IMG/VR virus record: IMGVR_UViG_3300011952_000030
Direction: 5' to 3' (one strand)
DNA length: 9,822 nt
Origin: a virus
Taxonomy: Duplodnaviria; Heunggongvirae; Uroviricota; Caudoviricetes
Shown: positions 390 to 8,190 of the stretch, piece by piece
Layout: each line of letters starts with the position of its first letter
Position numbering within the stretch: position 1 is the stretch's first letter
Notes under the pieces: generated by a model
Database searches by the model: none
The model's input: only the letters and a program-made list of their open reading frames with translations
Told to the model about the DNA's origin: nothing
Program-made: the position numbers and the translations under genes

Positions 390-1349
390 TTAATTCACCA
401 TCAGTCTTAGAGCCAGTTCTTCCGGATAGGGATCGAAGTAATTCTGTGTAAGCAAGTAATCATTAGGATACTCACCCAGATAATGCTTCAGCAGAGTCAA
501 CGGCGCAAGAAGAGGCAATGTGCCAAAGCGATAGTTAAGTATAACCTCGGTCAACTCTTTACGCTGGCGTGTACTTAAGTAATTACTAAAATACCCCTGT
601 ATATGCATCAGCACATTCGTGTGATTTTTACGTGATGCAGGTTTTCTGAGAATCGCCATCAGCTTATCACGATACACCTCAAAGTATGATTCAAGGTCCG
701 CCCACTCGTGTATTGCAGCCACAAATGGTCCCATATCTTTATAGCCTGCCTGACTATGCGCCAACAACTGAAGCTTATAACGACTATGAAAAGCTAATAA
801 CTCTCTTCTTGATAATTTCTCCTTGTAAAGGTGATTGAGCTCATGCAAAGCAAAAACTCTTTCAACAAAATTCTCACGAAGCACTGGATCATGTAATCGC
901 CCATCCTCTTCAACCGGTAGCCAGGAAAACTTTTCCATCAAAGTGCTCGTAAATAGTCCCACTCCATCTTTACGACCTCGATTACCATTTTCATCATAGA
1001 CACGCACGCGCTCCATGCCACAGCTGGGAGATTTAGCACAAACCACAAACCCCGATACATCCTTTAATTTGTGCATATAAGAACGACTAAACTCTGTCAT
1101 TCTCTCTGTCACATCCTCATTCTGGTCGTGGCTGAAACACATCCGTATATTTCCTTGCTTCGAGCGCACAAGACGTAGAGCAGGACGCGGAACTGGCAGC
1201 CCTATAGCCATTTCCGGACATACTGGTCTGAATGTTACCCATTCCACTAATTTGTCCATTAAAAAGTCAGCTCTTTTGTGACCACCATCAAAACGAACAG
1301 CAGAACCGGCCAAACAACCGCTGATTCCAATCACAGGTTTTTTTATCAT
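390..1349 (-). CDS. DUF523 (TudS-like, Cys-rich N-terminal half) fused to DUF1722 (YbgA-like C-terminal half), 319 aa
   Basis: ORF with ATG at 1349..1347 preceded by GGGGGAGGA Shine-Dalgarno. Cys motifs (GISGCLAG, VCPEMA, CAKSPSCGME) fit DUF523; the C-terminal half resembles YbgA. Family assignment is from memory, not a search. Confidence 0.75.
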   Translation of the reverse strand: MIKKPVIGISGCLAGSAVRFDGGHKRADFLMDKLVEWVTFRPVCPEMAIGLPVPRPALRLVRSKQGNIRMCFSHDQNEDVTERMTEFSRSYMHKLKDVSGFVVCAKSPSCGMERVRVYDENGNRGRKDGVGLFTSTLMEKFSWLPVEEDGRLHDPVLRENFVERVFALHELNHLYKEKLSRRELLAFHSRYKLQLLAHSQAGYKDMGPFVAAIHEWADLESYFEVYRDKLMAILRKPASRKNHTNVLMHIQGYFSNYLSTRQRKELTEVILNYRFGTLPLLAPLTLLKHYLGEYPNDYLLTQNYFDPYPEELALRLMVN

Positions 1350-1541
1350 ATCCTCCCCCTTGACTAATTCATTAACACATAAACTGTGTAGTGCACGGAA
1401 TAAATTGCCTTTCTGACGTCATCACTGACAATTTTTCTGTTATGGACTATTCCTAATATAGTATGAAAGTTCTTTAAGTGATCGGTCGTAATCATCTATC
1501 TTTCATACTTACTCTCAACTATCAAAAGTACAGGATTGATT
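1350..1541. promoter_or_regulatory. Divergent intergenic region between the YbgA-like gene and blc, with a 10-bp inverted repeat AGTATGAAAG (1461-1470) / CTTTCATACT (1500-1509) and a TGACGTCA palindrome (1426-1433)
   Basis: Repeats read directly in sequence; promoter function is inferred from position between divergent starts. Confidence 0.3.
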
Positions 1542-2066
1542 ATGAAGTTATGGCCTGTGTTGACTGGCATTGCACTCTCTTTCACTCTTATAGCATGTAA
1601 GGCCCCGACACCACCTAAAGGTGTGCAGCCGATTACAAATTTTGACGCCAACCGCTACCTCGGAAAATGGTATGAAATAGCTCGCCTCGAGAACCGGTTC
1701 GAACGTGGTCTGGAACAGGTCAGCGCTACTTATGGAAAACGGAACGACGGAGGGATTCGTGTACTTAACCGTGGATACGATCCAACGAAAAATAAATGGA
1801 GCGAGAGCGAAGGTAAAGCATACTTTACTGGAGATACTAAAACTGCAGCGTTGAAGGTTTCGTTTTTTGGCCCCTTCTATGGTGGCTATAATGTAATCAA
1901 ACTGGATGATGAGTATAAGTATGCTCTTGTTAGTGGTTCGAACAGAGAATACCTATGGATTCTGGCAAGGACCCCAACTATTCCAGATAAAGTAAAAGCA
2001 GACTATGTGCGAACCGCTCAAAAGTTGGGATTCAATGTCAATGAATTATTATGGGTTAAACAATAA
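1542..2066 (+). CDS. blc: Blc-family outer-membrane lipocalin lipoprotein (174 aa from ATG 1542; ORF track starts at TTG 1536)
   Basis: Signal peptide with lipobox L-I-A-C, then lipocalin motifs (NFDANRYLGKWYEIARL, FERGLE, KVSFFGPFYGGYNVI, YLWILARTP) closely parallel to E. coli Blc as recalled. AGGA lies 6 nt before ATG 1542. Divergent enough from chromosomal Blc to be a paralog. Confidence 0.8.
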   Translation: MKLWPVLTGIALSFTLIACKAPTPPKGVQPITNFDANRYLGKWYEIARLENRFERGLEQVSATYGKRNDGGIRVLNRGYDPTKNKWSESEGKAYFTGDTKTAALKVSFFGPFYGGYNVIKLDDEYKYALVSGSNREYLWILARTPTIPDKVKADYVRTAQKLGFNVNELLWVKQ

Positions 2067-2616: not shown

Positions 2617-3603
2617 TTAGGCCAGCACACCAATTGCCAGCGCGCGATCGATAAATCGAAAAATCAGCTCCAGTTGGGAGCCATACTTCTCTTCAAATGC
2701 CACGGTATCCGTATGCAACTCGTCGTGATGCTTTCTGCACAAAGGCAACACAAAGAGATCATGTGCTTTGGTTCCCATTCCGCCCTGCCCGTGACCAATC
2801 AGATGATGCGGATCGTCGGCTGGCATCCCGCAGCAAGCACACGGCTGTGTCTTAACCCAGCGTGTGTATTTCTCCTTAACCCAACGGTGACGTTTAGGCA
2901 GCTTCATGAAAGATTCCGGAGACTCTGGATCAACGGTGATGCTTACCACCGTCTTTTCCTGTGATGGGTTTTGTTGCTGGTGGGCGTGAGGCAACGGTGC
3001 AAGATTTTTTGTGCGCTGTTTCAATATGCTGGTGGCGGTCTGCTCTCCCGGTACGATGTCGCTTTCGCGGTACACCGAGCAGATTTTTTCCGCTGGTAAT
3101 CCCAGCGAGCGACGTAATACCGCTTCCGGTAGCGCGTCCGCCAGCTGATTGCGGACCGCCCACCAGGATAATTCAGCCAGAGATAATTCACGCTCCTTCG
3201 TACCGCTTATTGCGTGACCGATGACGTCAATCATCCATGCTGCCAGGTTTTGATGAGCAAGTTGCTCGAGTGATTCGGATGTCTGGTCACGCAGTTGGTT
3301 GTCGCAGTGCCAGCACAACACCATTGCGCCGGTACCATATCGGTGAATAACGGTTTCNNNNNNNNNNNNNNNNNNNNNNNNNNNNNNNNNNNNNNNNNNN
3401 NNNNNNNNNNNNNNNNNNNNNNNNNNNNNNNNNNNNNNNNNNNNNNNNNNNNNNNNNNNNNNNNNNNGCAGATTACGCATGCTTTTCGGTTCCGGCTCCA
3501 CCAGTACCCGGGTATTGTGGAATACCGGCATGGATTCACGGCCCGGCTTAACGACCACCAGCCCGAGTTCCGGTACCAGAACAGGTCGAAGTAATACCCG
3601 CAC
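2617..3603 (-). CDS. Nin-region protein with C-terminal HNH-like zinc-finger motif (DUF968 / YdfU-like); reading frame passes through a 110-nt N-run so the product is incomplete
   Basis: C-terminus [18 protein letters not shown]...[10 protein letters not shown] has the CxxC...HH...CxxHH spacing typical of HNH/DUF968 proteins found just upstream of Q in Qin-type prophages. ATG 3603 sits 1 nt after the upstream gene stop. Residues within 3358-3467 are unknown. Confidence 0.55.
3358..3467. other. Run of 110 N (masked or unresolved sequence) inside the DUF968-like gene
   Basis: Directly visible. The flanking reading frame is conserved across it. Confidence 0.95.
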
Positions 3604-4317: not shown

Positions 4318-4347
4318 AAAATAAAAACAAAAACACGCCGAAGCGGG
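4318..4347 (-). terminator. Weak GC hairpin with UUCG-type tetraloop (4334-4347) followed on the minus strand by a U-rich tract (plus A-rich 4318-4333); candidate hokD transcript terminator
   Basis: Stem has 4 G-C pairs and one mismatch; the U-tract is good. Position is about 70 nt downstream of the hokD stop. Confidence 0.35.
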
Positions 4348-4417
4348 TTAAGTGCGGGTGCGTTGAGGATGCCTGTCACATCAGAGGTGGCGAGGGATTT
4401 CTCCCTCGCCGGGTCTC

Positions 4418-4573
4418 TTACTCCTCAGGTTCGTAAGCTGTGAAGACAGCGACCTCCGTCTGGCCGGTTCGGATTCGTACCTCGCAGAGGTCTTTCCTCG
4501 TTACCAGTGCCGTCACTATGACGGTTAAACAGATGACGATCAGGGCGATTAACATCGCCTTTTGCTGCTTCAT
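4418..4573 (-). CDS. hokD: Hok/Gef-family type I toxin (HokD/RelF-like), 51 aa from ATG 4573; the ORF track's longer 70-aa form is an in-frame upstream extension
   Basis: MKQQKAMLIALIVICLTVIVTALVTRKDLCEVRIRTGQTEVAVFTAYEPEE matches E. coli K-12 HokD as I recall it: single TM helix plus conserved Cys and C-terminal periplasmic tail. A perfect 9-bp stem-loop (4389-4410) lies just 3' of the stop. Confidence 0.85.
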   Translation of the reverse strand: MKQQKAMLIALIVICLTVIVTALVTRKDLCEVRIRTGQTEVAVFTAYEPEE

Positions 4574-4951
4574 AGCCTGCTTCTCCTTGCCTTTCGGCAC
4601 GTAAGAGGCTAACCTACATGTGTCTAGCATGAAATTGGCCTCAGATTAATGTTAAGCGTCTTGCAGGACGCGTAATGTTAACTGGGGCTTTTCTCTATCT
4701 GCCGTTGGTGTTCATGCCCGAGGCAGATAGCCTCAAGCACCCGCAGGCATTCTACTTAACTCCCGTTATCTCGCCAATATGAAATCAGTCAGAAAGGCGA
4801 TCCATAAGAATAACAGAACAATAAATTACCCGCACCACCGCAATAGTCAGCGAACATTTAAGAACCAACATGACAGCCTCCCACATTTAAAGTACGTATG
4901 TTCTAATAAATATAAATGGCATGATTCTGCGAAATACTTACATAAGCAATT

Positions 4952-4980
4952 CGCTCAAATCTGACTGTCAGTTTTGAGCG
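4952..4980 (-). terminator. Near-perfect 29-nt palindrome (CGCTCAAA t CTGAC t GTCAG t TTTGAGCG) about 40 nt downstream of the ATPase gene stop; candidate operon terminator or protein-binding site
   Basis: Read directly in sequence. Flanked by an A-rich tract on the plus side and a moderately U-rich tract on the minus side. Sits at the left edge of the AT-rich island. Confidence 0.4.
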
Positions 4981-5018
4981 AGAAAAATGATATCTACATA
5001 TCTATCAAATTACAAATC

Positions 5019-6743
5019 TTAAAGCCTAAAAAACTTATCGTCCTCCCCAAGCTCAAGCACAACACTATTATTGATGAAGTCTTGATCAATATTCTCCAAC
5101 TTGTCTTTAAGAATAGCCAATATATATTGACCATTAATCCCCGAAGCTATCTCGAATAACTTATTTATTTGATTTACATGAATTGCCTCAATTCCATCAT
5201 GAGCTATAAAACGTGGTGTTCTGGCTTCTAAAGACTCCTGGACAGATAAATAGGCAAAATCTAAAGAGGCAACCTGGGCTTTCTTTTTTCCTTCTCCCTG
5301 ATTACCTGATGTGAGCAAAGTTCCTAAAGGTTCAATGGTAAAAACGAAAGAACCGGAGGAATCTTTATAGGAAAGAATATATTCATCCTGATATAATTTT
5401 TTAGTATATAAAGAAAAATAGGAATTGAATAGCGCAAGACGTTTGTTAAAATCGTCAAGTTTAGATTTTAATCTATCTGACACATCATTAAACTTTGCTT
5501 TCAGTATATTAAAGTTGTTCTCCATCTCTTGGATTTGAAGTAGTCCAGCTTCAAGCCCACCTTTTTCTTCAAATAATGAATTTAATTTTTTTTGCATTAT
5601 TTGCAGGTCTGCCAATGTCCCATGCGAAGACAAACTCTTTAAAAGCTCTGATTCTTGAGTCAATAAGTTATTTAGTTCATCTTTATATTTGGAAATTTCT
5701 TGCAGCACTGGCTGCATTTGTTTTCTAATAAACTCAGCTTTTTTTACAAGCATTTTATTATGAAACGAAAGTAGCTCAGTAAACTCTTTGTTTAAGTTAC
5801 CTAACCGATCAGTTGCTTCTAAGTACAACTTCTGTAGATCTAGTGTATTTATATTTTCATGACTTTTTTCCAGATCTAGTATAGCCTTATCGTTTAATTT
5901 TTGCTTAAACTCCAAAGATGATAGTGTGATAGAAACTTCACTAATTTTAATTTTTAACTCATTTAACTCAGCAAGCATATCATTATAAGAGTCTGCCACT
6001 TGAAAATTAGAAATTAACTCTTCTTGTGCTATAATATCTCTATTTATAATTGCAATAGCTTGTTCCAAAGCATTCTTTGAGCGATGGCGAGTAATTACTT
6101 CATAATCGGATTTCGCCAGTTTATAGGCTTTAGTCACTGACTGTTTTTCATCCAGAATCTGTGAGTTACCGAACCCAAACATAAACAGATTTAACGTTTC
6201 ATATTGTGTATTAGAACCCATTTTTATCGTTTTTAATGCGTTCGACATCTTGTCATGCGTATTTCGAATAACACGTCCCATAATCTCTCGTATGGTCGGT
6301 TTTATCGCGGAATCAAGATATAATGTTCTTTTTAAAGCCTCGTTGAAATCTTTAGCCTTCGTATAGGACTCTTCATTTATTGAGGCTATAACCTTCGTTT
6401 TATTAGTCTCAGATGTAATTTTACGCTTAATTTTTATTACTGGTGCAGTTTTATTATTCAAATCTTTTGTGAGAATTAAACAAAACTCAATCTCGTTCTC
6501 TATCAAATAATTTTTTATAACCGAATTTTCTTTCTTGAATTCAGGATCGGTATAAAAATTCAGTTGTTCTGCTCCAAAACAAAAATCTAAAGCTCTTAAT
6601 ACAGTAGTTTTTCCCACACCATTTCCAGTTTGCTCTTTGCTGGAGGTGTTTCGGTCAATAATCAAATTAACGCCAATGTGAAATTCGATATCACGAATCA
6701 CTCCAAGCCTGAAAGAACTGACTATTAGCCGTTTCAAAAACAT
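5019..6743 (-). CDS. P-loop ABC/SMC-like ATPase with long central coiled coil, 574 aa; last gene of the AT-rich operon
   Basis: N-terminal head typical of SMC/RecF/OLD-type ABC ATPases, with Walker A GNGVGKTT (aa 40-47, nt 6603-6626). Lys/Glu/Leu-rich heptad region at about aa 230-470. Degenerate signature-like TSGNQGEG (aa 479-485) and Walker-B-like FIAHD (aa 512-516, nt 5196-5210). ATG 6743 overlaps the upstream gene by 10 nt. Confidence 0.8.
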   Translation of the reverse strand: MFLKRLIVSSFRLGVIRDIEFHIGVNLIIDRNTSSKEQTGNGVGKTTVLRALDFCFGAEQLNFYTDPEFKKENSVIKNYLIENEIEFCLILTKDLNNKTAPVIKIKRKITSETNKTKVIASINEESYTKAKDFNEALKRTLYLDSAIKPTIREIMGRVIRNTHDKMSNALKTIKMGSNTQYETLNLFMFGFGNSQILDEKQSVTKAYKLAKSDYEVITRHRSKNALEQAIAIINRDIIAQEELISNFQVADSYNDMLAELNELKIKISEVSITLSSLEFKQKLNDKAILDLEKSHENINTLDLQKLYLEATDRLGNLNKEFTELLSFHNKMLVKKAEFIRKQMQPVLQEISKYKDELNNLLTQESELLKSLSSHGTLADLQIMQKKLNSLFEEKGGLEAGLLQIQEMENNFNILKAKFNDVSDRLKSKLDDFNKRLALFNSYFSLYTKKLYQDEYILSYKDSSGSFVFTIEPLGTLLTSGNQGEGKKKAQVASLDFAYLSVQESLEARTPRFIAHDGIEAIHVNQINKLFEIASGINGQYILAILKDKLENIDQDFINNSVVLELGEDDKFFRL

Positions 6744-6970
6744 AATATCAAATCTCCATTTTCGTTAGCATCAACCAGGCCTAATAAATATAGCCAATTT
6801 AAAGTGTAAATATATTGCGTGAATGAAGAGTTGTTATTTTTAGATTTGAATTCATTATACAAGTCTATAATATCAACATACGAATAAGCATTTGAACTCA
6901 TGCATTCTAATAACCGAGCTCCCAGGTAATACAAGGTTTGGCTTGGTTTTGTTACATCAGAGATAATCAT
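6734..6970 (-). CDS. Small 78-aa protein, third gene of the AT-rich operon; possible adaptor or winged-helix-like component
   Basis: ATG 6970 overlaps the upstream stop in an ATGA arrangement; its own stop overlaps the ATPase start. Codon usage matches the neighbours. No motif recognised. Confidence 0.6.
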   Translation of the reverse strand: MIISDVTKPSQTLYYLGARLLECMSSNAYSYVDIIDLYNEFKSKNNNSSFTQYIYTLNWLYLLGLVDANENGDLILCF

Positions 6971-7563
6971 ATTGGTTTTTCCAGAATCTTACACTCTACG
7001 AATGCATGATAAACGATAAAAGAAGCATGGCATTCGATTTCTTCGCTTGTGTAATTCATTGCCATAAGAGAATTTAAGCATTTCTTAATGATGTGCTCTA
7101 TTACACTGTCTATTATCCAATCTGCAAACTCTCTTACCAATTGAATCTTTAAATTATTCCGTTCCTGAGCATCCTTGCAGCTCTTATACGCTTCTCTATG
7201 TTTAAGCAATAAATCTCCTTGACAATCAAGATATCGTGAATTGATGCTTTTCAGTGCCGTTTCCTTAGCAGTAGGCATACTTTCATTTAATGTTTCATAC
7301 GCTTTATCTATCATCGAAGAATATAGATAGAACCCTTCAATACGTTCTCTATGTTTTATAACATCATTGAAGTCTATTTTATTCTCAATATCATATGGCT
7401 CGTAGTCATTGTTTGTACGAGGATCAATAACATTCGAATCAACTAAAATACCAACAAGATCCATAAAAATCGATGGAGACTTTATAATATCAACAGAGTT
7501 AGAATCGACAACCACCTGCACATTACGTGAGTAATTCCCTGACCTTTGAGTAACACCAACCAT
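6967..7563 (-). CDS. 198-aa soluble protein of unknown function, second gene of the AT-rich operon
   Basis: ATG 7563 lies 2 nt after the upstream TGA; its stop overlaps the next ATG. Acidic, with five Cys but no recognisable nuclease or protease motif. Confidence 0.65.
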   Translation of the reverse strand: MVGVTQRSGNYSRNVQVVVDSNSVDIIKSPSIFMDLVGILVDSNVIDPRTNNDYEPYDIENKIDFNDVIKHRERIEGFYLYSSMIDKAYETLNESMPTAKETALKSINSRYLDCQGDLLLKHREAYKSCKDAQERNNLKIQLVREFADWIIDSVIEHIIKKCLNSLMAMNYTSEEIECHASFIVYHAFVECKILEKPI

Positions 7564-7565
7564 GA

Positions 7566-7811
7566 TCAGCCTCGCTTGTTTTCATTATTTCCAAAAACGA
7601 CCGTCTGATTATTTTTTGAATGGCTACCGCTTTTTTGAATTATTGTATGCCCTGAACTTTTTTTATTAACAATAAATGTACCTAAAAATGTTACAAGAAA
7701 GCTACCAGAAGTGAACATCAATGGCACACTATTGAAGTGATATGCAGCAAAGCCAGCGCAAGCAACGAATGTCAAAGAAAATATTCTAATCATAATTCGG
7801 ATCATAGCCAC
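7566..7811 (-). CDS. Small two-TM membrane protein (81 aa from GTG 7811, or 79 aa from ATG 7805), first gene of the AT-rich operon
   Basis: Two hydrophobic helices (about aa 8-27 and 30-48) followed by a polar Lys/Ser/Asn-rich tail. AGGA lies 8 nt upstream of ATG 7805. Confidence 0.55.
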   Translation of the reverse strand: MAMIRIMIRIFSLTFVACAGFAAYHFNSVPLMFTSGSFLVTFLGTFIVNKKSSGHTIIQKSGSHSKNNQTVVFGNNENKRG

Positions 7812-8028: not shown

Positions 8029-8085
8029 NNNNNNNNNNNNNNNNNNNNNNNNNNNNNNNNNNNNNNNNNNNNNNNNNNNNNNNNN
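8029..8085. other. Run of 57 N (masked or unresolved sequence) upstream of the AT-rich operon
   Basis: Directly visible. Flanked by ...TAGTGCAT and TGCATAGG... Confidence 0.95.
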
Positions 8086-8190
8086 TGCATAGGAATGTCA
8101 GCATTATCCGCTCTTGGCACAAACCAAACGACCACGCTAGCGCTAATCTTGTGCCACGAAAATGTCAATTCACATCTGAACTAATGCTCT

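What the first reader, a model, noticed from the sequence alone, without database searches (positions are those of the whole stretch)
4318..4780. hokD type I toxin sits directly downstream of the new operon, with mRNA structural elements but no relBE
A Hok-family toxin, identical to K-12 HokD as I recall it, lies about 450 nt downstream of the ATPase gene on the same strand. Its flanks hold a perfect 9-bp stem-loop just 3' of the stop (4389-4410), a second hairpin with U-tract (4334-4347) and a 9-bp stem hairpin in the leader (4694-4733), consistent with the folded Hok mRNA architecture. No relE or relB ORF is present upstream, so hokD here is either read through from the operon or has its own promoter and antisense Sok.
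Basis: partly seen in the sequence, partly recalled or inferred. Interest (0 to 1): 0.5.

Follow-up and report, generated by a model that had tools for sequence, protein, structure and literature searches.

The report
Complete hokD/sok toxin-antitoxin module in prophage
This is an ordinary, already known kind of small toxin gene (hok) with its own promoter and its own antisense RNA antidote (Sok), sitting in the backbone of a Qin-like prophage; the well-known K-12 "hokD" is a cut-down copy of it, and the neighbouring operon is unrelated cargo.

Summary
On the minus strand, 4573..4418 encodes a 51-aa Hok toxin that is 100% identical to K-12 HokD.

The open question (read-through, or own promoter plus Sok) resolves to the second option. 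The locus is a complete hok/mok/sok type I toxin-antitoxin module:
- its own promoter;
- a 169-nt leader matching Rfam RF01794 at 115 bits;
- an in-frame 70-codon mok;
- a convergent Sok gene (4622-4692, plus strand) with promoter and terminator;
- a tac/fbi 5'-3' pairing that covaries across genera;
- a protective hairpin after the stop codon, and a terminator.

From promoter to fbi it is 93% identical (395/425) to hokW-sokW of phage 933W/Sp5, which has been shown experimentally to be a type I TA system. K-12 hokD is the derived form. Homology with the window begins only about 19 nt before the ATG, because the relBE cargo replaced the leader.

The ABC-3C operon is one of many alternative cargoes in the slot upstream of hokD (17 of 5,426 complete E. 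coli genomes).

Verdict: already known, low interest.

The parts
4749..4777 (-). hok/mok promoter: -35 TTGGCG (4777-4772), 17-nt spacer, -10 TAGAAT (4754-4749). The predicted start is G4742.
   Evidence: Promoter scan, 9 of 12 matches. The -10 box and the start are identical in 933W hokW and mEp460. The Rfam model begins exactly at 4742.
4325..4742 (-). Predicted full-length hok mRNA, about 418 nt.
   Evidence: MFE -165.1 kcal/mol, z = -7.3. Mapped onto 40 diverse relatives, the structure is 93.8% paired, with 27 pairs changed on both sides against 8.7 +/- 2.2 in shuffles.
4731..4742 (-). tac (translational activator) element GGGUGCUUGAGG at the mRNA 5' end.
   Evidence: It pairs with fbi in the full-length fold with unpaired probability about 0. 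It pairs with ucb in the isolated 5' fragment. It is conserved across genera.
4695..4730 (-). Leader hairpin with a 9-bp stem, CUAUCUGCC/GGCAGAUAG. It forms the apical part of the tac stem and the nascent-transcript structure.
   Evidence: (I1). It is helix 3: 99.7% paired, with 2 pairs changed on both sides.
4684..4690 (-). ucb / anti-SD box AAGCCCC. It pairs either with the mok SD (closed form) or with tac (open form).
   Evidence: Full-length fold: GAGG 4642-4639 pairs with 4687-4684. 5' fragment: tac pairs with 4690-4684. Forcing tac-ucb costs +12.4 kcal/mol with fbi present and 0-1.1 kcal/mol once fbi is removed.
4639..4642 (-). mok Shine-Dalgarno sequence GAGG.
   Evidence: It lies 8 nt before the mok ATG. 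It is invariant in 40 relatives and sequestered in the full-length fold.
4418..4630 (-). mok ORF, 70 codons, in frame with hok (an N-terminally extended Hok).
   Evidence: ORF list. It projects onto mokW of 933W. The ATG is conserved in 72-73 of 73 relatives.
4418..4573 (-). hok (hokD) toxin CDS, 51 aa. The SD GGAG is at 4586-4583.
   Evidence: Pfam HOK_GEF 82.9 bits. 100% identical to K-12 HokD. RefSeq names it WP_000813254.1 HokD.
4587..4615 (+). Sok promoter: -35 TTGCCT (4587-4592), 17-nt spacer, -10 TAACCT (4610-4615).
   Evidence: Read directly from the sequence. It lies 7 nt upstream of the projected sokW 5' end and is identical in 933W. The hexamers are nearly invariant in 73 relatives. 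The consensus scanner did not pick it up because the -10 matches only 3 of 6.
4622..4692 (+). Sok antisense RNA, 71 nt: a 15-nt single-stranded 5' tail complementary to the mok start codon region, a long hairpin (4637-4689), and a U-tract.
   Evidence: Projection of the sokW misc_RNA annotated in 933W. Fold energy -28.7 to -31.4 kcal/mol, z = -5.5. It is helix 6: 97.8% paired, with 3 pairs changed on both sides.
4389..4410 (-). Hairpin after the stop codon (9 bp, GAAA loop). It is the presumed 3' end-protecting stem of the processed, active mRNA.
   Evidence: (I11). Pair 5 is A-U here, G-U in K-12 and G-C in 933W. It is helix 19: 97.4% paired. The role is inferred from R1 (PMC9841398).
4356..4368 (-). 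fbi (fold-back inhibitory) element CCUCAA(C)GCACCC.
   Evidence: It forms 12 bp with tac with one bulge, -21.5 kcal/mol (I9, 36, 41). It covaries with tac in Kluyvera and Photorhabdus and always lies 45-56 nt after the stop.
4318..4347 (-). hok terminator: CCCGC-UUCG-GCGUG hairpin (4347-4334) followed by U-runs. It is weakened by a G>T change at 4335.
   Evidence: The canonical CCCGC-UUCG-GCGGG form is present in 51 of 73 relatives.

Best explanation
The region 4318-4777 is a self-contained hok/mok/sok type I toxin-antitoxin module. It belongs to the backbone of a Qin-like (DicA/DicC-type) lambdoid prophage.

**Proposed mechanism.**
1. A weak constitutive promoter (4777-4749) makes a roughly 418-nt hok mRNA starting at G4742.
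2. In the full-length RNA the 5' tac box pairs with the 3' fbi box, and the mok Shine-Dalgarno sequence is held by the ucb anti-SD. Neither mok nor the coupled hok is translated, and Sok cannot bind.
3. Slow 3' trimming back to the stable post-stop hairpin (4410-4389) removes fbi. tac then pairs with ucb, and the mok translation start and the Sok target open up.
4. The convergently transcribed, unstable 71-nt Sok RNA (4622-4692) then pairs through its 15-nt 5' tail with the mok start region. This blocks mok and hok translation and triggers cleavage of the duplex.
5. If Sok supply stops, for example on loss or induction of the prophage or on transcription shut-off, the stable processed mRNA is translated and the 51-aa Hok peptide damages the inner membrane.

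**Shown here (all in silico):** the presence, arrangement, conservation and covariation of every sequence element; identity of the toxin to K-12 HokD; near-identity of the regulatory region to hokW-sokW; and independence from the upstream cargo.

**Inferred from R1 hok/sok and Sp5 hokW-sokW:** transcription starts, 3' processing, translational coupling, RNase III cleavage, toxicity in this context, and the biological role (prophage maintenance and/or help with lysis at induction).

K-12 hokD is the derived, truncated version. There the relBE cargo replaced everything upstream of position -19, leaving hokD as the third cistron of the relBEF operon.
For: **Family and homology**
- Rfam RF01794 matches 4742-4568 on the minus strand at 115.3 bits (gathering score 59), E = 2.4e-26, over the full model 1-157.
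- Pfam HOK_GEF 82.9 bits. PHROG 251 'MokW-like host killing' 114.7 bits.
- 933W annotates mokW, hokW and sokW. The window is 395/425 identical from promoter to fbi, and the three features project to 4630-4418, 4573-4418 and 4622-4692.
- The knockout primers YO-349 and YO-351 of the hokW-sokW paper match the window leader exactly (read).
- hokW-sokW has been shown experimentally to be a type I TA system (PMC8621323).

**RNA structure**
- tac-fbi: 9-nt perfect inverted repeat 375 nt apart (I9); 12-bp duplex, -21.5 kcal/mol.
- Compensatory changes: GAGG:CCTC becomes GAGA:TCTC in Kluyvera, and GGGTGC:GCACCC becomes GGGCGC:GCGCCC in Photorhabdus.
- Full-length structure on 40 relatives: 93.8% of cells paired; 27 pairs changed on both sides, against 8.7 +/- 2.2 in shuffles (0 of 500 reached the observed value) and 6-13 in slid controls.
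- In-silico switch: forcing tac-ucb costs +12.4 kcal/mol with fbi and 0-1.1 kcal/mol without it. This matches the R1 model described in PMC9841398.

**Promoters**
- hok promoter found by the scan. Sok promoter hexamers are nearly invariant in 73 relatives.

**Independence from upstream genes**
- K-12 homology starts about 19 nt before the ATG.
- The cargo between the DUF977 gene and hokD differs in every genome inspected.
- 70 of 80 viral contigs with an identical HokD have the intact leader, and 2 have relE.
- Junction counts in 5,426 genomes: relE-hokD 1,173; intact locus with shared flank about 901; ABC-3C-hokD 17.
Against: - Nothing here measures RNA or protein. The transcription starts, 3' processing and Sok expression are all inferred.
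- The Sok -10 box (TAACCT) is a poor consensus match, and the scanner missed it.
- The unconstrained MFE of my guessed truncated mRNA does not adopt the open form by itself. The open form is only iso-energetic with it.
- The pair-count structure was derived from one of the aligned sequences and includes coding sequence, which inflates the percentage paired (caveats).
- The terminator is weakened in this lineage, so 3'-end formation may differ from relatives.
- The Hok survey preprint reports that the chromosomal loci tested (hokA, hokB, hokC) failed to mediate post-segregational killing. A measurable phenotype is therefore not guaranteed.
- No strong intrinsic terminator separates the ABC-3C operon from hok, so some read-through transcription cannot be excluded.
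Confidence: 0.9

Rival explanations
1. hokD is expressed mainly as a downstream cistron of the ABC-3C operon by read-through, in the way K-12 hokD is the third gene of relBEF. On this view the hok/sok-like elements are vestigial.
For: The two lie on the same strand with a 445-nt gap. The scanner called no canonical intrinsic terminator between 5019 and 4777. The hairpin at 4951-4981 after the ATPase stop (-16.6 kcal/mol, z = -3.2) is AT-rich and lacks a U-tract. K-12 sets a precedent for co-transcription.
Against: The hok promoter, tac, mok, the Sok promoter and fbi are all intact and are conserved regardless of what lies upstream. The ABC-3C junction is present in only 17 of 5,426 genomes. 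In other genomes the adjacent cargo gene is on the opposite strand, as in mEp460 and L005. A 5'-extended transcript would still fold tac-fbi and remain subject to Sok.
Confidence: 0.05
2. The module is structurally complete but phenotypically silent. It is so tightly repressed that it causes neither post-segregational killing nor help with lysis, making it a selfish or relic passenger of the prophage.
For: [quoted passage not shown] The window's terminator is weakened. The Qin-like prophage context may be cryptic, and IS elements occur in related copies.
Against: The regulatory region is essentially identical to that of hokW-sokW, which is active and affects lysis timing and phage yield. All elements are under visible purifying selection and show covariation. 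The HokD peptide served as a toxic control in the survey.
Confidence: 0.25
3. Hok/Sok is functionally coupled to the ABC-3C defence system, for example as its membrane effector or as an addiction module that stabilises the defence island.
For: The two are physically adjacent in a cargo hotspot.
Against: The same hokD module flanks many unrelated cargoes: relBE, SMEK plus a methyltransferase, and assorted hypothetical proteins. The ABC-3C operon carries its own candidate effector components, CTD10 and an 81-aa membrane protein. The published survey found no enrichment of hok next to defence systems. The module also occurs at a different position in 933W.
Confidence: 0.03

Closest known systems
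hokW-mokW-sokW of Stx2 phages 933W / Sakai Sp5 (AF125520; Takada et al. 2021, PMC8621323)
   Same: It is 93% identical (395/425) from the -35 box to fbi. The hok -10 box, the mRNA 5' end, tac, the leader hairpin, ucb, the Sok promoter hexamers, the Sok hairpin and fbi are identical. Both have an in-frame 70-codon mok and a 51-aa toxin. Both lie in lambdoid prophages.
   Different: The toxin C-terminus differs...FTAYEPEE here against ...FVDYESEK in HokW. Six substitutions fall in the Sok 5' tail and mok start region (4624-4637). The post-stop hairpin carries compensatory changes. The sequence downstream of fbi (the terminator) is unrelated. The position in the phage also differs: the replication-to-Q region here, and the right-arm moron region in 933W.
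K-12 hokD (relF), third gene of the relBEF operon in the Qin prophage
   Same: The CDS, the 3' UTR (post-stop hairpin, fbi, terminator) and the downstream genes rem, ydfU and Q are the same, with the CDS identical in nucleotide sequence. It occupies the same prophage slot.
   Different: K-12 lacks everything upstream of about -19: the hok promoter, tac, ucb, the mok start, the Sok promoter and the Sok gene. These are replaced by the relE 3' end plus a 71-nt spacer. K-12 is the truncated derivative and the window holds the complete form. In the literature, K-12 hokD is described as inactivated by genomic rearrangement (PMC12214031).
hok/sok (parB) of plasmid R1, the family prototype
   Same: The architecture and the inferred mechanism are the same: tac/fbi, ucb/dcb, mok coupling, convergent Sok, and a 3' stem-loop (model from PMC9841398; elements found here).
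   Different: HokW, which differs from this toxin at only 5 of 51 residues, is 44% identical to R1 Hok. mok is in frame with hok here, whereas from my recollection of the R1 sequence it is out of frame there (not tested). The host element is a prophage rather than a plasmid.

Membership tests
[quoted passage not shown] | A small hydrophobic Hok/Gef-family toxin ORF. | tested here: met
   Pfam PF01848 at 82.9 bits against a cut-off of 22. PHROG 251 at 114.7 bits. 100% identical to K-12 HokD.
[quoted passage not shown] | A conserved structured 5' leader carrying the Sok target. | tested here: met
   Rfam RF01794 at 115.3 bits against a gathering score of 59, over the full model length.
[quoted passage not shown] | An overlapping mok reading frame that starts upstream of hok and has its own SD. 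| tested here: met
   A 70-codon ORF at 4630-4418 with GAGG 8 nt upstream. The ATG is conserved in 72-73 of 73 relatives. It corresponds to the annotated mokW.
[quoted passage not shown] | A cis-encoded antisense Sok RNA gene with its own promoter and terminator, overlapping the mok translation start. | tested here: met
   Met at the sequence level only. The promoter is TTGCCT-17-TAACCT, the RNA spans 4622-4692, and it folds as a hairpin plus U-tract with z = -5.5. Expression was not measured.
[quoted passage not shown] | A long-range tac/fbi pairing between the 5' and 3' ends of the mRNA. | tested here: met
   A 12-bp duplex of -21.5 kcal/mol with unpaired probability about 0 in the full-length fold. 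Compensatory changes occur across genera.
[quoted passage not shown] | The ucb/dcb conformational switch on removal of fbi. | tested here: inconclusive
   The competing pairings exist, and the energy penalty for the open form drops from 12.4 to 0-1.1 kcal/mol without fbi. The unconstrained MFE of the guessed truncated RNA stays closed, and the true 3' end is unknown.
[quoted passage not shown] | Toxicity of Hok, neutralisation by Sok, and 3' processing of the mRNA. | not testable with these tools
   Known for the identical HokD peptide (a toxic control in the survey) and for the near-identical hokW-sokW locus. Not measured for this locus.
relBEF operon (the K-12 arrangement of hokD) | relB and relE immediately upstream, co-transcribed with hokD. 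| tested here: not met
   tblastn with RelE found nothing, and RelB gave only a chance hit at E = 7.5. The sequence upstream of -19 is unrelated to K-12.
ABC-3C (ABC three-component) system, taking hok as a component | Conserved co-occurrence of hok with the DUF2326 ATPase, middle component and CTD genes. | tested here: not met
   The junction is present in 17 of 5,426 genomes, while the intact hokD locus is in about 901. Other cargoes occupy the slot.

The most novel reading that the evidence does not exclude
The hok/sok module may be a fixed backbone landmark bordering a variable cargo (defence or moron) slot in Qin-like prophages. Its only rapidly diverging patch is the 15-nt Sok recognition tail and mok start spacer (4620-4639). 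That patch could be under diversifying selection, so that the up to nine hok/sok copies resident in one E. coli genome do not cross-neutralise one another. A further speculation applies to this orientation: early-operon read-through at prophage induction would collide with the convergent Sok promoter, which would link Hok release to induction.
Probability: 0.3. Interest if true: 0.35.

Novelty: already known. Interest (0 to 1): 0.12.

Why it matters
It matters mainly for annotation.
- RefSeq labels only the 51-aa CDS as "hokD" in these genomes. It does not annotate mok, Sok or the regulatory leader.
- The gene name comes from the truncated K-12 copy, so a reader can wrongly expect relBE upstream or assume the gene is an orphan.
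- Recognising the locus as a complete module of the hokW-sokW type shows that it is autonomous and separate from the neighbouring ABC-3C defence operon. It also marks the right-hand border of a cargo hotspot in Qin-like prophages.
- None of this changes what is known about hok/sok biology.

Tried and rejected
- **Leader as a remnant of relE.** Rejected. Alignment with K-12 shows unrelated sequence upstream of -19, and the window's leader is a full Rfam match.
- **Consensus scans as the test of Sok.** The scanner found the hok promoter but neither the Sok promoter (-10 matches 3 of 6) nor the terminator (mismatch at 4335). I therefore relied on projecting the 933W annotation and on conservation.
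- **Unconstrained folding of a guessed 3'-truncated mRNA to show the open conformer.** It stayed closed. Only the constrained comparison was informative.
- **Leader query as a count of hokD loci.** Not specific, because paralogous hok leaders also match at about 90% (4,135 genomes). I used the junction-specific queries instead.
- **The other Rfam hits.** ceN48, sR55 and the Betaproteobacteria toxic sRNA are all below their gathering scores. The first overlaps the Sok hairpin and the last is a terminator-like hairpin at 2093-2136. All were dismissed as chance.
- **The 61-aa plus-strand ORF at 4779-4964.** No family hit, and it overlaps the hok promoter flank. Treated as spurious.
- **Literature search for an explicit description of the hokD truncation.** I found only the secondary statement in PMC12214031. 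The primary paper (Pedersen and Gerdes 1999, cited from memory) is not in the library.

Full report
**1. What is there**

The Hok gene is on the minus strand.
- The ORF list shows a 70-aa ORF at 4630..4418 whose last 51 residues start at the ATG at 4573.
- The 51-aa product matches Pfam HOK_GEF at 82.9 bits and PHROG 251 "MokW-like host killing" at 114.7 bits.
- It is 100% identical to K-12 HokD by tblastn. The coding DNA is also identical base for base to K-12.
- RelE finds nothing in a six-frame search of the window, and RelB finds only a chance hit at E = 7.5.
- The ATPase ORF ends at 5019 on the same strand, 445 nt upstream of the hok ATG.

- The perfect 9-bp stem at 4389-4410 has -19.7 kcal/mol and z = -5.8.
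- The 9-bp leader stem lies at 4695-4730, inside a larger stem at 4684-4742 with z = -4.0.
- The small hairpin at 4334-4347 is followed by U-runs. It is weak here because of a G>T change at 4335 (-4.6 against -11.8 kcal/mol).

**2. What it is**

Rfam's RF01794 model matches 4742-4568 on the minus strand over its full length, at 115.3 bits against a gathering score of 59.
- The match is in the sense of the hok mRNA, since it ends on the hok AUG. It therefore identifies a complete hok leader rather than fixing the strand of Sok.

The leader is absent from K-12.
- Alignment with the K-12 relE-hokD region shows identity from about 19 nt before the ATG, through the CDS and 3' UTR, into rem.
- Upstream of that point the sequence is unrelated, being the relE 3' end.

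Phage 933W (AF125520) annotates mokW, hokW and the SokW antisense RNA.
- The window is 395/425 identical to 933W from the -35 box to fbi.
- The annotated features project to mok 4630-4418, hok 4573-4418 and Sok 4622-4692 on the plus strand.
- The knockout primers published for hokW-sokW of Sakai prophage Sp5 match the window's leader exactly (read).
- That locus was shown experimentally to be a type I TA system. Its Sok RNA disappears and its Hok appears on prophage induction, and deleting it delays lysis and halves phage release (PMC8621323).

**3. Anatomy**

- **hok promoter:** TTGGCG-17-TAGAAT at 4777-4749, with the conserved mRNA 5' end G4742 lying 7 nt downstream.
- **tac:** GGGUGCUUGAGG at 4742-4731.
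- **fbi:** CCUCAA(C)GCACCC at 4368-4356, 49 nt after the stop codon. The two boxes form a 12-bp duplex of -21.5 kcal/mol and are paired with unpaired probability about 0 in the full-length fold.
- **Sok promoter (plus strand):** TTGCCT (4587-4592), 17-nt spacer, TAACCT (4610-4615), 7 nt before the projected Sok start.
- **Sok RNA:** a 15-nt unpaired 5' tail complementary to the mok AUG region, then a long hairpin and a U-tract.
- **Post-stop hairpin (4410-4389):** this is where 3' trimming would be expected to stop. In R1, mutations in the equivalent stem destabilise the processed mRNA (PMC9841398).

**4. Tests of the structure**

Across 53 loci from species-representative genomes, tac and fbi change together.
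- Kluyvera has GAGA paired with TCTC.
- Photorhabdus has GGGCGC paired with GCGCCC.
- The fbi box always lies 45-56 nt after the stop.

The window's full-length MFE structure was mapped onto 40 sequences that are less than 97.5% identical to one another.
- 93.8% of cells are paired.
- 27 pairs show changes on both sides, against 8.7 +/- 2.2 in shuffles (0 of 500 reached the observed value) and 6-13 when the partners are slid.
- Caveats: the structure came from one of the aligned sequences, and much of it is coding sequence.

The R1 switch is reproduced in part.
- With fbi present, forcing the tac-ucb stem costs 12.4 kcal/mol. Without fbi it costs 0-1.1 kcal/mol.
- In that open conformer the mok SD pairs with a downstream box.
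- The unconstrained MFE of my guessed truncated RNA stays closed, so I rate this feature as inconclusive.

**5. Relation to the neighbouring operon**

The window is a Qin-like prophage with this gene order: DicA/DicC-type regulators, YdaT, replication genes, DUF977, cargo, hokD, rem, ydfU, Q.

The "new operon" is an annotated ABC-3C system.
- It comprises a DUF2326 ATPase, middle component 6, a CTD10 protein and an 81-aa membrane protein.
- The ATPase matches PADLOC PDC-M68B.

The slot between DUF977 and hokD holds a different cargo in every genome inspected:

| Genome or phage | Cargo upstream of hokD |
|---|---|
| Window | ABC-3C operon |
| K-12 | relBE with ydfV and flxA |
| L005 | SMEK protein, methyltransferase and a hypothetical |
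| L006, L008 | One or two hypotheticals |
| Phage mEp460 | 449-aa protein on the opposite strand |

Counts in 5,426 complete E. coli genomes:

| Arrangement | Genomes |
|---|---|
| relE-hokD junction | 1,173 |
| Intact locus with its shared upstream flank | about 901 |
| ABC-3C-hokD junction | 17 |

Of 80 viral contigs with an identical HokD, 70 have the intact leader and 2 have relE.

So hok/sok is backbone and the operon is one exchangeable cargo. K-12 hokD is the derived form, in which a cargo replacement removed the leader. The literature describes K-12 hokD as inactivated by rearrangement (PMC12214031).

Read-through from the operon cannot be excluded.
- No canonical terminator was called between the two.
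- The hairpin at 4951-4981 lacks a U-tract.
- Read-through is nevertheless not needed to explain expression.

**6. Verdict**

This is a complete, autonomous hok/mok/sok module of a known and experimentally characterised type. The implied association with the operon is not supported. Novelty is "already known" and interest is low.

The only mildly new points are side observations, listed under the things noticed in passing:
- Sequence variation is concentrated in the Sok recognition tail.
- A small hydrophobic ORF lies in the shared upstream flank.
- The terminator is weakened in this lineage.

Noticed in passing
window 4620-4639: Among 73 non-identical hokD-type loci, variation inside the transcript is concentrated in this 20-nt patch. 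It covers the Sok single-stranded 5' tail, the mok AUG flanks and the first mok codons. The mean non-consensus fraction is 0.20-0.24 here, against less than 0.05 in most other 10-nt bins. The Sok promoter hexamers, the mok ATG, tac and ucb are nearly invariant. This could be a specificity determinant that keeps co-resident hok/sok copies apart; up to 9 matching places occur per genome.
   Followed up: partly
window 4785-4886 (minus strand): A 33-aa hydrophobic ORF, MWEAVMLVLKCSLTIAVVRVIYCSVILMDRLSD. GGGAGG overlaps its ATG and is better placed as an SD for the internal in-frame ATG at 4871. It ends 8 nt before the hok -35 box and lies in the flank shared with other intact hokD loci. L086 has a clear homolog. 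Other relatives have different short hydrophobic ORFs, or the sequence reads in another frame. It has no Pfam, PHROG or NCBIfam match and is not annotated in RefSeq.
   Followed up: partly
window 4335: A G>T change puts a mismatch in the hok terminator stem (CCCGC-UUCG-GCGUG instead of GCGGG), weakening it from -11.8 to -4.6 kcal/mol. This exact variant is unique among 73 non-identical relatives, 51 of which have the canonical stem. It may increase read-through into rem.
   Followed up: partly
window 4434 and 4478 (minus strand): There are two UACGAA motifs of the kind edited by TadA. At A4434, codon 47 TAC would be recoded to Cys. At A4478, codon 32 GTA, editing would be silent. Low-level A-to-I editing of hokD mRNA has been reported (PMC12214031). 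933W has a hard-coded G at 4478.
   Followed up: no
window 5019-7811 (minus strand): A four-gene ABC-3C system: an 81-aa protein with hydrophobic stretches, a CTD10 protein (198 aa), middle component 6 (78 aa) and a DUF2326 ATPase (574 aa; PADLOC PDC-M68B, 141 bits). It is found next to hokD in only 17 of 5,426 complete E. coli genomes. A hairpin at 4951-4981 follows its last gene.
   Followed up: partly
window about 3330-3450 and about 8030-8090: Masked stretches that read as runs of X in the translations interrupt the ydfU-like DUF968 ORF and the region upstream of the DUF977 gene.
   Followed up: no
window 390-2066: A YbgA-family gene (minus strand) and a lipocalin-family gene (plus strand) sit downstream of the Q antiterminator gene. 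They look like moron-type cargo in a second variable slot of the prophage. A terminator-like hairpin at 2093-2136 gave a sub-threshold Rfam hit.
   Followed up: no
L003 (933W) 2571-2845: In 933W the near-identical hokW-sokW module lies in the right-arm moron region beside a very large ORF, not between the replication genes and Q. The module itself therefore moves between positions in lambdoid phages. Homology with the window ends just after fbi and about 15 nt upstream of the -35 box.
   Followed up: partly
L033 (Kluyvera sp.), L049: A relE 3' end that is 97% identical to K-12 lies upstream of a Hok only 70% identical to HokD in a Kluyvera genome. This suggests that relBE has been joined to different hok genes more than once, or has moved together with its junction.
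   Followed up: no
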